Part shown: one piece after another, positions 48,801 through 57,200 of the stretch
Layout: each line of letters starts with the position of its first letter
Position numbering within the stretch: position 1 is the first letter of the stretch
NCBI RefSeq assembly: GCF_021869535.1
Contig: NW_026262701.1
Location: forward strand, 37,262,001 to 37,326,000
Reading direction: 5' to 3'
DNA length: 64,000 bases
DNA from: Mytilus californianus
Lineage: Eukaryota
Program-made: the position numbers

Positions 48801-51159
48801 GAAAATGACTTAACTTTTCAAGTACATCTTTATCTTCATTGGTCATTAACCATAGAAATTTTGATTTGCAGTCTAAGTTATTAAAATTTGGACAGTGTTC
48901 ATCAGTTTGTGCATACAATTATTCACGAAAGTTAAAAAAAATAAAACTCATCTTCTATATCGTTATGAGAACAAAATTTACAAGTCTTCTGTGACCTATT
49001 TATAGGTTTGTTTTTATCTCGCTCTTTTTCCACTCGTAATTGGTAAGCACTTATGCGAAATTTACATGATGTTTGTCTTAATTCAAAACTTTTAATATTA
49101 AGATATTTTCCCATTTGAAAAATACTTTTGTGAGAAAAATTTGTATCCAGCTTTCCAGTAACCTTATCCTTTCCATTGTACCATGCTTTCAAAAACAATA
49201 TCTATAACTTTCTTCATAATAAGTTGATTTAATCTATTTTTTGAATAATCAATTCAACATGTTTCTTTCAATTCAAGCTTTTCAAGAATAAATTTAACAG
49301 ACGAATACCACGTCATAGTGTTATTTTCATGCGTAGTCTTGTTACATATAATAGCTTCTTTCAATAAATTTGAGTGACAGTGATGTAATTTATGCAAATA
49401 GCTTATCATAGATATAACAATATTAAAATACATAGGAAATCTTCCTAATTCTGATTGTACAGCAACATTTGTACTTTTATTATTAGCACCTAAAATATGC
49501 TTACAGAACTTCAAGTTCATTTTATCAGTAACATTGTTCTGGTATATTTTTTCGAGTATATTAATAACATCTTTTTTACAAGATGCAGAGTCAATTTTGA
49601 ACATTCGCCATATCTCGGAGCCTTACAAAGTAATAGGTTTAATGGTATGGTCAAACAGATGTAAATGTGTGTTAATACTAGCAGCTAAAACGGATAAACA
49701 TCTACTTAGTTTTTATGAAGCTTTTATAGATTAGCATTTGTAAATACAGGGTTAGAATTGAAAAATATAGACTTTTAAACGTTGAAACTAGAATATTTAC
49801 ATAGTACTGTTAACCAACTTACTTTTGCATTTATTACGGCAATAACTTATGAGCATCAAAAGTGATATTTGATATTTTTCTTTTAAATCATTTAAGACAT
49901 TCATTCGAATGTTTGTTTTTTTCCCAGGTGTAATGAACTTCCCCTTTTTAGAATTTACCTTGGGTTCGGTATTATTATTAATTCTTTTTTTAGCACATGA
50001 TATTTAGAATTTGATTGAAAGTGAAAGACCATTAAAACATAAATTGTTTGTCTCATGTGCAAAGTGCAAACATACAGCATCTTCTTATGTTTATATTGAT
50101 TATATTTCTTCTGTGGTGTACATATCATGTATATCGTCAATACACCAAATTTTCCTGTCCGGTAAAAGAAGGAAAAATGTAAATTCAAAAGTTATTCTGA
50201 CTTTTTATTGATAGCTGATTGTACAATCAAAAGTTTGCATGTCCAATATGTGATATTATCATCTTTATTTCATTCAATATGGACGTAGTTTAACGACGAC
50301 ATTCTTATGATATCTGGGCTTTTTTATGGCTGTATCCATATCCAGGTCTGTTGAAGTTCCTTTTAATCGAAGCTTTCAGTTTTTGCAAACGCCTCTTGTT
50401 GTTTAATTTATACTCATAACCTTTCGGTGAAAAGATAGACCTCGGCATAAACATGGACTTCACTATAACAAAACAAAAAGTAAAGTTACTACATGTATTT
50501 ATGAATAATTGTAATCAGTTCAGTTCGAATAAACAGACAAATCTTAAATACAAATACATTAACATGTAACTGTCAAACAAGAATTATAATCCTCATCAAC
50601 TATTCTCTCCGTATTTTGTTTTATATAAAGCACTCATGATTCGATTTAATGAAAAAAACAGCTTAGATCTTTATGAGAAATACTTTTTATATTGAAACGC
50701 TATTTTACAATATAATGGATCACAAATTAATATACTATTTTGAAAGGTCATAGAAACTTTTACCTTATGCCAATAAGCATTTTATTGTCATAAGAAAACC
50801 CACTTTTTAATTATAGTTAATATTCACTCAGCTATGTGTCAAAGGAATGAAATTACGTTTAGAGAGGAACTTGAAATATGTGTTTGCCAATCGCAATTAT
50901 CGCTTCACTGTATAAACTTTTAATAACGAAATTGACGAAAATATCATCAATTATATATACCTTCATATCTGGTTCTACCGATTATGTATTTCTATTCGTT
51001 CTATCTATCTATCTTACCTATATATATATTTGAAAAATGTTATTTGTGCTGTATTTAGACCTCTCTACCAATAAATTTGTTTTACATGAACACGCATGAA
51101 AATTGCGGTTTTTATCCAACGCAATCATAGGTTTGAATGTTGTTTTCAATTTAGACTTG

Positions 51160-51205
<46 letters not shown>

Positions 51206-54200: not shown

Positions 54201-57200
54201 GTCTGTCCACCATCAGTAATCACAATGACAAAACACTGAGCACATTTTCTACCCGCTCCATTTGTCGGAGTCAGAAAATCGGTTCGTACGAACTGAAATT
54301 GTTTTAATATCAGGATATAGTCTTCAGATAAGCATAATTTATAATGGAACAAACGAGTCAACAAATATTCTGCATGAAAAAAAATAATCAGAATGCCTAG
54401 CATGTTTTACTTACATGGTTAACGTGCTGGATGTCGCAACGAAAACGAGATTTTCAATGGCGTTGTTTATCTGTTTGTCCTTTCTCGACTAATAGTTCAC
54501 GACGAACATCTACGTATCAATAAAAGGAGATAGTAGGTATATGCCGATGAGACGGCAACCCAACGACCCAATTTATTGAAAGAAACCTGCAGGTCCAACA
54601 CAGACTTCTCTACAATAATGTTTCTGTTTTTATTTATTCCATTTAGATAACTATATAGACACTTCAATAGTTTCCAAGACTATTGACTGGTTTTATAAGC
54701 TAATCCCCATTGATATAGTCTAAAGAAATACTGGCAATATCAATCAGTTTCTTAATCAAAATTTAATTTGTATTCATGTAGTTTAATAGAGTGTGATGGC
54801 CTGGATTACCAAAGCAGGTCAGCATGGAATAAGAATAATATTGTGTTCAAGCAGAGCGAGATGTCACAAACAGAAGTGTTGATTATACATCTGTCTGTTC
54901 TAAGAAACTGTGTCTTCTTAATGTCGTTTTTGTTTTTTTGCCTTTGGGTTGCTGTCTAGTTAACGTATCCTCCACATCTCGATTTCTATATACAATAAAA
55001 ATCAGTTCAGGAAAGCACTAAATTCTATAAAAACGGCCGATGGGAAGGCCACAAAGGCAAGCAATAATGTTGAAAAGAATGCTCGACATTACCCCTAGCA
55101 ATTTCCAAGTACTTTCCCTTCCCCAATGAAGTCATGCCGTTTGCATTATGATGTCGGTTTTTGAGTTTCAAAGTAGATTACATATAGAAACGTCATGAAC
55201 AAAGACAGAACTGATGTTGCAAAAAGAAAGAAAGAAATGAAAGACTCCTACAATGTATTATTAATCTTCGTCATTAAGTCTGTGACGTCAACTATTAAGA
55301 TTTTAAGGACAGTTATAAAACGTGTTAGCTTTACAAATAATAATGATGTAAAAAAAATGATGAAAATCATACGTCCTGAATAAATCTGTATGTTTGTTAT
55401 TATGACCAATTTGTGATATTCATATTCCGGATGTAAAAATATAAAGTAATATTTTTACAGAATGGAATTGACAAGTCATTGAGAACACTACTTTAAGTGT
55501 ATTATATGGTTTATTGTCACAGCGATTGCGAATTTTCTAAAATCATATGTTCAGATAGACACGTTTATTGAAAGTGCCACAAGGTGACGGAGATTCCTGG
55601 AAATAAAACAAAAAATCCTTATAGATTCTGTGTTAATGAAGTTTAAATCCTTAATTTCAATTAGTTAATCAGTTATAACAAAAAATGATAAGTTTAAGTA
55701 ATATTCATATCAATCAGATGTAAATTCATACATCTAAAGCAGCTCCGATATCTATGTTGGAGTTAGGAGTCGTAGGGAAAGCTTCAATGGCAGCAATAGT
55801 TGCTGGCTTTGTACTATGAGTATTCAAGTAGAAATGCTTTACTGGTTCTTTTGAAAAACAAAGAGCGGCAAACTGGGTTCCAGTGGCTCCTACTGGATGG
55901 AACAAATCCACAACATTTACCATAAAATCTTCCATTGCAGGAAAATTATCACGACTGATACTTCCACTAGTATCGTACACAAAAATGATGTCAGCAACTG
56001 CTTTACATGTCAGTTTTTCATCTTAATATAGATAAGATAAAAAATGTATTCAATTAATAACATTCTACGCGTGAATTGTTTTCATAATCAAATTTGAGAA
56101 AAAGAAACTTGTTGTGATCACTTGTAATTGATAAATTAAAATTATTTTCATTTGAGTTTCATTGATGTCTTTGAAGCTGTTATTAGTTAAGATCACATTC
56201 ATTTATATGAATATAAAACATTAAACGTTTACCTGGTTTCTTTGGATGATAACGATAGTGTGCTTCTCCTGCTGCAATCACAACCAAAACCTACAGATAT
56301 TTAAAAGTCATGAAATGTATTGGATTTCTTAAGATTGTAACATGGATACGACGTTTAAAGTATGCAATGAACAAGAATTCTGAATCTAAAATGGAAAATG
56401 TGCCAGCTATGATGTGACACAGATAAGATGTAATTCACAAACAGGTTATGATGAAACCACTTATACATTCATGACATGTGCCTATCATAGAATTCAAACC
56501 TACCATAATAACATTTAGGAAGACCATTGTGGTATCTAAAAAAGAAGAGATATCGTTTAAAAAGTGTTAAAAAAACAAATATTCGTGGAAAAAAGAATTA
56601 ACACGTATGTAATGTCATGAAAACTTGAATTACAATTTGTTAGCAAAATTATATGCAGTTAAATAATATCAAAGAAGCAAAGATGTCAACTTTTAATCAT
56701 TAAAACAAATATTTCAGAAATAATTTGTTTTCTTCATTATTATCAATTGCACTTTCGAGATTTGTGGAGTCTGTGCGGTTGCCTGGTGTTGATGATAAAT
56801 AAAACATGTGTAATGAAAGCCAGTCGACAGTATATCTCACAATTCACGAACAGTGTGAGAGAAAAGAAGATACTATGTGTGCTAAGAATGAACTTGTTTT
56901 AACCCTCATCTGTTATGATAGTATCCATAAACTTAGAATACACAGACAAATGAAAATATTAAGATAATTAAAACAAAAAGGAGCTTAACAGAGCTTACAT
57001 AACCAGGAAAAACCAAGTAATTTAAAGAAAACCTCGTGATAATCTATGTGAAAATGCTTTTATCAAAAATACTTTACCTTGTCTCAAATAAGCAAATTCT
57101 TACCAGGATGTCTGTATATTTTGATCGAGAACTGCTGAGCAAAAATTTACCTCTATGGGGACAGAAAAGTAGTCATATAGGTAGTCTGCGTAACAGTTTT

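What the first reader, a model, noticed from the sequence alone, without database searches (positions are those of the whole stretch)
50274..56290. Hidden spliced gene: single cysteine-rich VWA domain with His/Tyr/Lys-rich termini
Seen: five exons with canonical, phase-compatible junctions (56290-56233, 56021-55732, 54292-53989, 51697-51638, 50462-50305) and a poly(A) signal; three of them are absent from or mis-framed in the ORF track. The predicted mature N-terminus is HYRYHPKKP. The C-tail KSYAYKG…KGYEYK…KRRLQK…PGYGYSHKK is strongly basic, with Tyr next to Lys/Gly and dibasic sites. Established: VWA domains occur in mussel byssal matrix proteins (PTMP1), and Tyr/Lys- or His-rich motifs mark DOPA- and metal-cross-linked foot proteins. 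Inference: a candidate byssus, shell or adhesive matrix protein joining a collagen-binding-type fold to cross-linkable tails.
Basis: partly seen in the sequence, partly recalled or inferred. Interest (0 to 1): 0.65.

Follow-up and report, generated by a model that had tools for sequence, protein, structure and literature searches.

The report
Stop-codon-broken mussel PTMP1-like VWA gene
The spliced gene is real and belongs to a small mussel family of secreted proteins related to a byssus thread protein, but this copy has a stop codon inside its main domain, so as assembled it looks disabled.

Summary
I found the missing ATG exon at 56527-56504. The two large exons are the two halves of one VWA domain (Pfam PF00092, E 7e-17 and 2e-12).

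It is codon 190 of 298 and lies inside the VWA domain.

The nearest proteins are 13 Mytilus models auto-named "COL6A" or "collagen alpha-6(VI) chain-like". The close ones are 52-64% identical per VWA exon. They share the layout: signal peptide, H/Y-rich start, one VWA, Tyr/Lys/Pro/Gly tail.

The best solved relative is byssal PTMP1.

No protein matching this locus is in the database, although the neighbouring serpins are.

Verdict: an unannotated, nonsense-disabled member (a young pseudogene or a null allele; less likely an assembly error) of a known but uncharacterised PTMP1-like family. A byssus or shell role is inferred, not shown. Moderate-to-low interest.

The parts
56504..56527 (-). First coding exon (ATG plus 7 codons, the first half of the signal peptide) with donor GTAGGT. 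A pyrimidine tract plus AG at 56537-56536 suggests it is an internal exon preceded by an unlocated non-coding 5' exon.
   Evidence: Picked by me, by its likeness to the relatives' N-termini, from the 90 upstream ATG...GT candidates that the script listed. 6 of 8 identical to residues 125-132 of P0002. Upstream context read.
56233..56290 (-). Coding exon 2: the rest of the signal peptide and the H/Y/K-rich mature N-terminus (phase 0 in, 1 out).
   Evidence: Translation. 72% identical over 18 residues to P0004 and P0006. A TAG lies immediately upstream in frame, so the exon must start at this AG.
55732..56021 (-). Coding exon 3: N-terminal half of the VWA domain. It holds the MIDAS DxSxS at 55974-55960 and an Ile (ATA, 55755-55753) where the family has the MIDAS Thr.
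   Evidence: Pfam PF00092 E 7.3e-17, profile 1-85 of 174. 56-62% identity to eight Mytilus relatives that span the exon. T89I is a unique deviation. PTMP1 domain A2 scores 44.6 bits.
53989..54292 (-). Coding exon 4: C-terminal half of the VWA domain, interrupted by the in-frame TAG.
   Evidence: Pfam PF00092 E 1.9e-12, profile 88-173 of 174, read with X at the stop. 52-64% identity to 11 relatives. PTMP1 E 1e-15.
54095..54097 (-). Premature stop codon TAG (codon 190 of 298). In the model of relative P0006 it falls in the helix before the last strand, and it lies 106 nt upstream of the next exon junction.
   Evidence: the stop-to-stop ORF ends at 54095. Relatives have V/L/T/E/A/K at this column. 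Secondary structure.
51638..51697 (-). Coding exon 5: a 60-nt linker exon, phase 1-1. It ends in a KSY..G motif like the relatives' linkers. This is the weakest part of the model, because it can be skipped in frame.
   Evidence: Canonical sites and phases. Weak similarity: 45-83 of 2000 shuffles reach its score against the three best-matching tails (P0011, P0003, P0004), 146-1854 against the other six. No better alternative exon found with the relatives' tails.
50305..50462 (-). Coding exon 6: basic Tyr/Lys-rich C-terminal tail and the TAA stop (50307-50305).
   Evidence: Open frame. Collinear with tails of P0003, P0004, P0006, P0010 and P0013, with 0 of 2000 shuffles reaching the score. It is the best tblastn match of those tails in 49.5-57 kb.
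50264..50269 (-). Poly(A) signal AATAAA, 36 nt after the stop codon. A second lies at 50209-50204.
52197..53018 (.). A two-copy tandem of a ~420-bp unit with internal inverted repeats (MITE-like), inside the 2291-nt intron. Not part of the coding model.
   Evidence: 300 nt at 94% and 54 nt at 98% identity; inverted arms of 79-168 nt.

Best explanation
This is a six-coding-exon gene on the minus strand (56527 to 50305). It belongs to a small, so far Mytilus-only family of secreted single-VWA proteins whose closest characterised relative is the byssal collagen-binding protein PTMP1.

An intact copy would give about 297 residues: an 18-residue signal peptide, a short His/Tyr/Lys N-terminus, one VWA domain clamped by N- and C-terminal cysteines, and a disordered basic Tyr/Lys/Gly tail.

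In this assembly the copy is disabled. A TAG at codon 190 removes the end of the VWA fold (part of a helix, the last strand, the last helix with the C-terminal cysteines) and the whole tail. It also lies upstream of two more introns, so the mRNA should be a target of nonsense-mediated decay (inference). The MIDAS threonine is also lost.

Because everything else is intact, the lesion is young. The locus is either a recently dead pseudogene or a null allele still segregating in the species.

By analogy only, intact family members would act as extracellular matrix cross-linkers. The VWA would bind a collagenous partner as in PTMP1. The Tyr/Lys tails would provide charge-driven condensation and possibly DOPA or metal cross-links.
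For: Shown:
- Exon structure, phases and canonical splice sites.
- VWA halves in two exons.
- In-frame TAG.
- ATG exon matching relatives' signal peptides.
- 13 Mytilus relatives: the 11 close ones are 52-64% identical per VWA exon and share the layout (some are partial models); two remoter ones, P0014 and P0015, are 35-60% over what aligns.
- Tail exon homologous to family tails, 0 of 2000 shuffles for 5 of 9 tails.
- PTMP1 is the top solved relative by sequence and by fold.
- In the P0006 model the residue equivalent to the stop lies in helix 193-199, before strand 205-208 and helix 211-228. Tails have pLDDT below 50.
- No protein near 100% identity to this locus among annotated proteins of 143-2000 aa, although the two serpins 13-16 kb away are in the NCBI-derived collection. 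This fits annotators having skipped or pseudogene-flagged it.
- 7 unique deviations at otherwise invariant family positions, including the MIDAS Thr, against 0-4 in each of 11 relatives.
- PTMP1 binds mussel and mammalian collagens (PMC4754843, abstract and passages).
Against: - No reads were available, so a base-call or assembly error at one of the three bases cannot be excluded.
- Apart from the TAG the gene looks healthy. There are no frameshifts, all splice sites are canonical, all 7 family cysteines are kept, and DxSxS and the TDG aspartate are retained.
- The excess of unique deviations is confounded. This copy is a lone lineage, whereas most relatives have close sisters.
- No expression, proteomic or binding data exist for any family member in what I could search.
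- The AlphaFold model is of a relative, not of this locus, and is of moderate quality (mean pLDDT 60.4).
Confidence: 0.6

Rival explanations
1. The gene is intact and functional in the animal. The TAG is a consensus or assembly error, or a private variant of the sequenced haplotype with an intact allele on the other chromosome.
For: Only one lesion in 894 nt. Canonical junctions, conserved cysteines and most MIDAS residues are kept. The column is variable, and three residues seen there in relatives (E, K, L) have codons one substitution from TAG (plus the genetic code).
Against: Single-base substitution errors that create a stop in one given 0.9-kb CDS are rare in chromosome-scale assemblies (general knowledge; the contig is 122 Mb). 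No protein model for this locus was found although neighbouring genes have them. The MIDAS Thr is also lost.
Confidence: 0.22
2. The stop is bypassed, either by alternative splicing that removes it or by translational read-through, so a full-length or near full-length protein is still made.
For: The TAG itself ends in AG after a pyrimidine-containing stretch, so it could in principle act as an acceptor.
Against: The only in-frame GT upstream that would fit gives a 39-nt 'intron' and would delete a strand and helix that are conserved in all 11 relatives aligned there. No known recoding signal was seen and Rfam found nothing in 49-58 kb. TAG read-through at useful levels is uncommon in animals (general knowledge).
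Confidence: 0.03
3. On function, independent of the stop: the family works in shell or myostracum matrix or in general extracellular matrix, rather than in the byssus.
For: VWA-only 'collagen-like proteins' were identified in the insoluble matrix of M. galloprovincialis nacre and myostracum (PMC4517812, passages). The window also holds a galaxin-repeat gene (E 3e-154) and two serpins, gene kinds I recall, from no call, being reported from biomineral matrices.
Against: The closest characterised protein by sequence and fold is byssal PTMP1. Cationic Tyr/Pro/Lys repeat tails in relatives such as P0005 resemble foot proteins more than acidic shell proteins (recalled knowledge of foot proteins). 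Gene neighbourhood at 13-40 kb is weak evidence in an animal genome.
Confidence: 0.3

Closest known systems
PTMP1, proximal thread matrix protein 1 of the Mytilus byssus (PDB 4cn8, 4cn9, 4cnb)
   Same: Same genus-level source and the same VWA subtype. It is the best per-domain PDB match of both VWA exons (44.6 and 33.1 bits) and the top match of relative P0006 by sequence (E 5.5e-48) and by fold (E 7e-15, 31-33% identity over about 200 columns). It has a DxSxS MIDAS and is a secreted matrix protein.
   Different: PTMP1 has two tandem VWA domains (454-residue chain). This gene has one. PTMP1 lacks the short H/Y/K N-terminus and the Tyr/Lys/Gly tail seen here and in the family. Identity is only about 30%. 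This copy has Ile at the MIDAS Thr and a premature stop.
Mytilus single-VWA models auto-named 'COL6A', 'collagen alpha-6(VI) chain-like' or 'collagen alpha-1(XIV) chain-like' (e.g. XP_071173659.1 M. edulis = P0006; A0A6J8C0Y7 M. coruscus = P0004)
   Same: Same layout and collinear exons. Signal peptide 6 of 8 and 72% identical, VWA halves 52-64% identical, seven conserved Cys, homologous tail exon.
   Different: This copy is about equally distant from both subgroups (the GYGY-tail group and the PVY-repeat group), has no relative above 64% per-exon identity, has two extra Cys, has lost the MIDAS Thr and carries a stop.
Collagen VI alpha-3 N-terminal VWA domains, and matrilin / cartilage matrix protein
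   Same: VWA domains of the same Pfam family. Collagen VI alpha-3 gives 16-35 bits per domain. The next non-Mytilus hit is Argopecten 'cartilage matrix protein-like' at 32% identity.
   Different: There is no Gly-X-Y triple-helical region and no arrays of VWA domains in the exon translations. The database names are similarity labels, not orthology.
Mussel foot proteins with Tyr/Lys-rich, DOPA-bearing sequences (mfp type; recalled knowledge)
   Same: Basic, Tyr-rich, low-complexity termini. Tail counts are K 12, R 5, Y 6 of 70. Relatives carry PVY-type repeats.
   Different: No sequence homology was tested or found: 0 hits for the tail in 1.84 billion representatives. DOPA modification is not testable here. 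Foot proteins lack a VWA core.

Membership tests
VWA domain (Pfam PF00092) | Profile match above the gathering score across the whole domain | tested here: met
   Two exons score 62.6 and 48.2 bits (cut-off 23.8) and cover profile positions 1-85 and 88-173 of 174.
VWA domain (Pfam PF00092) | Complete MIDAS (DxSxS, Thr, Asp) | tested here: not met
   DTSGS and the TDG Asp are present. The Thr position is Ile, whereas all 10 relatives aligned at that column have Thr. MIDAS residue roles are taken from general knowledge of VWA domains.
VWA domain (Pfam PF00092) | Uninterrupted coding sequence for the fold | tested here: not met
   TAG at 54097-54095, before the last strand and helix.
PTMP1 | Two tandem VWA domains | tested here: not met
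   One VWA only. tblastn of the exons finds no second copy in the 64-kb window.
PTMP1 | Closest sequence and fold relationship | tested here: met
   at about 30% identity, so a relative and not an orthologue.
PTMP1 | Collagen binding and location in the proximal byssal thread | not testable with these tools
   Needs protein work, or proteomics and in situ data.
Mytilus single-VWA 'COL6A-like' family | Signal peptide plus H/Y-rich start, seven conserved Cys, VWA at 50% identity or more | tested here: met
Mytilus single-VWA 'COL6A-like' family | Homologous Tyr/Lys/Gly tail | tested here: met
   Last exon: 0 of 2000 shuffles reach its score against 5 of 9 tails, and 49-99 of 2000 against the other 4. 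The linker exon is inconclusive.
Collagen VI / XIV (the database names of the relatives) | Gly-X-Y triple-helical region | tested here: not met
   None in any exon translation or in the relatives.
DOPA-type mussel foot proteins | Tyr converted to DOPA; expression in foot glands | not testable with these tools
   Composition only.

The most novel reading that the evidence does not exclude
The family may be an undescribed class of byssal matrix proteins that fuse a PTMP1-type collagen-binding VWA core to mfp-like cationic Tyr-rich tails. One small protein could then dock on preCol fibres and also cross-link or condense with DOPA and metal chemistry.

The copy in this window would be a segregating null allele. 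That would be an example of loss-of-function or presence/absence variation acting on the adhesive gene repertoire of mussels.
Probability: 0.15. Interest if true: 0.6.

Novelty: new member of a known kind. Interest (0 to 1): 0.3.

Why it matters
For annotation: the locus should be recorded as a six-coding-exon VWA gene with a premature stop, not as an intact hidden gene.

For mussel biology: it points to a small, Mytilus-restricted, uncharacterised family that joins a PTMP1-like VWA domain to Tyr/Lys-rich tails. The family is currently hidden under misleading 'collagen VI-like' names. If its members prove to be byssal, they would be natural candidates for the link between collagen fibres and DOPA or metal cross-linked matrix. 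The broken copy here would show that this repertoire turns over.

On present evidence that is a lead, not a result.

Tried and rejected
- **Paralogues in the window.** tblastn of each exon peptide found only self-hits; the next best E was 0.46.
- **Splicing around the TAG.** The only in-frame option is a 39-nt excision of conserved residues, so I rejected it.
- **Tail exon against 1.84 billion representative proteins.** 0 hits at E 0.001 or better. This is uninformative for a 51-residue low-complexity query.
- **A better linker exon.** tblastn of 9 relatives' tails over 49.5-57 kb found none.
- **Relaxed-constraint test.** Unique deviations are 7 here against 0-4 in relatives. The result is suggestive but confounded by this copy being a lone lineage, so I treat it as inconclusive.
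- **RNA families in 49-58 kb.** None.
- **Other reading frames in 49.8-57.2 kb.** Only the gene's own exons and chance ORFs in AT-rich sequence.
- **Literature.** Seven searches and passages of seven papers gave no description of this single-VWA, Tyr/Lys-tail family. One search failed on a term of five words and was reworded.
- **'Collagen VI' reading of the database names.** Rejected, because there is no Gly-X-Y.
- It used a wrong frame offset of mine and is void.
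Full report
**What is in the sequence**

- Each is preceded by AG, and all but the last are followed by GT: GTAAAC, GTATGA, GTAAGT, GTAGGT.
- Their lengths are 58, 290, 304, 60 and 158 nt.
- The phases chain correctly.
My one search was out of frame by my own slip and is void.
- AATAAA lies 36 nt after the TAA stop, at 50269-50264, and again at 50209-50204.

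**The missing first exon**

The frame of exon 56290-56233 is closed by a TAG immediately upstream, so an upstream ATG exon is needed.

A script listed 90 ATG...GT mini-exons between 56291 and 64000. From that list I picked the one at 56527-56504 (8 codons, donor GTAGGT, 213 nt upstream) by its likeness to the relatives' N-termini.
- It is 6 of 8 identical to the start of the signal peptide of relative P0002, at the right place.
- It is itself preceded by a pyrimidine tract and AG, so a non-coding 5' exon probably lies further upstream. I did not locate it.

With this exon the coding model is six exons, 894 nt and 298 codons including the stop.

Exon 54292-53989 contains an in-frame TAG at 54097-54095. 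It is codon 66 of the exon and codon 190 of the model.
- The stop-to-stop ORF list shows the frame ending at 54095.
- No sensible splice removes it. The only in-frame GT...AG pair would excise 39 nt that encode a strand and helix kept by all 11 relatives aligned there.

As assembled, the gene encodes at most 189 residues that lack the end of the domain and the whole tail. The stop lies 106 nt before the next exon junction and two introns follow. The transcript should therefore be subject to nonsense-mediated decay; this is an inference from the general rule.

**What the gene is**

- The two large exons are the two halves of one VWA domain. Pfam PF00092 gives E 7.3e-17 for profile positions 1-85 and E 1.9e-12 for positions 88-173 of 174.
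- Searched exon by exon, the N-terminal VWA exon finds 7 proteins of 169 residues or more. All are from Mytilus coruscus, M. edulis or M. galloprovincialis, at 58-62% identity.
- A profile of these (alignment A1) finds 25 proteins at E 1e-10 or better among the 8000 candidates scored:
  - 13 are Mytilus proteins, now including M. trossulus;
  - one is a three-VWA scallop protein at 32% identity;
  - 11 are unnamed sequences at 28-33% identity.
- The complete Mytilus models among them (several are partial) share one layout: signal peptide, an H/Y-rich start, one VWA with seven invariant cysteines, then a Tyr/Lys/Pro/Gly tail that in one subgroup becomes a long PVY-type repeat.
- Their names ('COL6A', 'collagen alpha-6(VI) chain-like', 'collagen alpha-1(XIV) chain-like') are automatic. 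None of them, and no exon here, has Gly-X-Y repeats.

Each exon of the window gene matches the family collinearly.

| Exon | Match to relatives |
|---|---|
| Signal-peptide exons | 6 of 8 identical, and 72% |
| VWA exons | 52-64% to the 11 close relatives |
| Last exon (tail) | 0 of 2000 composition-preserving shuffles reach its score against 5 of 9 tails; 49-99 of 2000 against the other 4 |
| 60-nt linker exon | weakly similar (best 45 of 2000 shuffles); skippable in frame |

The last exon is also the best tblastn match of those tails in the region. The linker exon is the least certain part of the model.

A fold of this locus itself therefore stays undone.

**Relation to PTMP1**

Against the PDB sequences, PTMP1 (4cn8) is the best per-domain match of both VWA exons.
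- Scores are 44.6 bits to its second domain and 33.1 bits.
- The higher whole-chain score of collagen VI alpha-3 for the first exon is the sum of nine weaker domain hits.
- For the 60%-identical relative P0006, PTMP1 is first with E 5.5e-48.

An AlphaFold2 model of P0006 from the 7-sequence alignment is of moderate quality: mean pLDDT 60.4, VWA core 61-85, signal peptide and tail below 50.
- Its best Foldseek matches are the PTMP1 entries, with E 7e-15 to 1.5e-13, 31-33% identity and about 200 columns. Integrin I domains and collagen VI domains rank behind them.
- PTMP1 has two VWA domains and binds mussel and mammalian collagens (PMC4754843, abstract and passages).

However, this family has one VWA plus tails, so it is a relative of PTMP1 and not PTMP1 itself.

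**State of this copy**

- The copy is about equally distant from all relatives and has none above 64% per-exon identity.
- No protein near 100% identity to it appeared among database proteins of 143-2000 residues.
- By contrast, the exact sequences of the two serpin genes 13-16 kb away are in the NCBI-derived collection, on a 122-Mb contig.
- One of those serpins is 94% identical to an M. coruscus protein. The window therefore comes from an annotated Mytilus genome close to M. coruscus, in which this gene apparently has no protein model.

At positions where at least eight relatives agree, this copy shows 7 unique deviations against 0-4 for each of 11 relatives.
- One is Ile at the MIDAS threonine, where all 10 relatives aligned at that column have Thr.
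- The comparison is biased, because the copy has no close sister.

Everything else is intact: no frameshift, canonical sites, all seven family cysteines plus two extra, DxSxS and the TDG aspartate.

I read this as a young disabling mutation, either a recent pseudogene or a null allele. An assembly error is the main alternative. Only reads can decide.

**Function**

Nothing here shows expression or location.
- By analogy with PTMP1, the VWA core of intact members would bind a collagenous partner.
- The basic Tyr-rich, predicted-disordered tails (K 12, R 5, Y 6 of 70 counted residues; pLDDT below 50 in the relative) could give electrostatic condensation and Tyr/DOPA or metal cross-links. This is inference.
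- His is not enriched: 6 of 294 residues.
- A shell or myostracum role is a live alternative. VWA-only 'collagen-like' proteins were found in M. galloprovincialis nacre and myostracum matrices (PMC4517812, passages).

**Literature**

Seven full-text searches and passages from seven papers turned up no description of this family.
- Supplementary tables were closed and may list members.
The genome collection on offer holds only bacteria and archaea, so I could not examine the orthologous locus in other mussels.

**Surroundings**

There is no second VWA copy in the window. Nearby features are:
- a DUF6570 fragment at 58439-58972;
- a reverse-transcriptase fragment (20557-21270) and an unassigned 122-codon ORF (49257-49622; only a sub-threshold Swm2 match);
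- a two-copy ~420-bp MITE-like tandem inside the 2291-nt intron;
- no Rfam family in 49-58 kb.

**Verdict**

The locus is a new, unannotated, stop-codon-bearing member of a known but uncharacterised PTMP1-like single-VWA family of Mytilus. The interest lies in the family more than in this copy.

Noticed in passing
window 12740-14071 (-): A 444-codon open frame made of di-cysteine repeats matches Pfam Galaxin_repeat (PF24748) at E 3.3e-154 over 7 stretches. It is a galaxin-like gene, probably a single large exon.
   Followed up: partly
window 33635-34768 (-) and 36518-37645 (+): Two intronless serpin genes lie in divergent orientation about 1.75 kb apart and are 38% identical to each other. Both exact proteins are in the NCBI-derived collection as singleton 90% clusters. 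One is 94% identical to an M. coruscus serpin. By eye, in the alignment, the minus-strand one has lost the usual Ala-rich hinge of the reactive-centre loop, so it may be non-inhibitory.
   Followed up: partly
window 58439-58972 (-): A 178-codon ORF matches DUF6570 (E 4.2e-07) about 2 kb upstream of the VWA gene's ATG exon. I recall this domain as linked to Helitron-type elements; that comes from no call.
   Followed up: no
window 20557-21270 (-) and 49257-49622 (-): The first ORF is a reverse-transcriptase fragment (RVT_1, E 2.7e-09). The second had only a sub-threshold Swm2 match (19.3 bits, cut-off 25); by eye it resembles the end of the first. It lies just downstream of the VWA gene's poly(A) signal.
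   Followed up: no
window 52197-53018: A tandem pair of a ~420-bp unit (94-98% identical), each with internal inverted repeats of about 80 nt, lies inside the gene's 2291-nt intron. It is MITE-like.
   Followed up: no
window 46001-48000: GC content rises to 0.42 here against about 0.27-0.36 elsewhere. Overlapping minus-strand ORFs of 123-126 codons had no Pfam match.
   Followed up: no
window about 51160-51225 (-): A long (TA)n / (TATA) microsatellite lies in the intron between the linker exon and the tail exon. It gives spurious Tyr/Ile-rich tblastn matches to the PVY-repeat tails of relatives.
   Followed up: no
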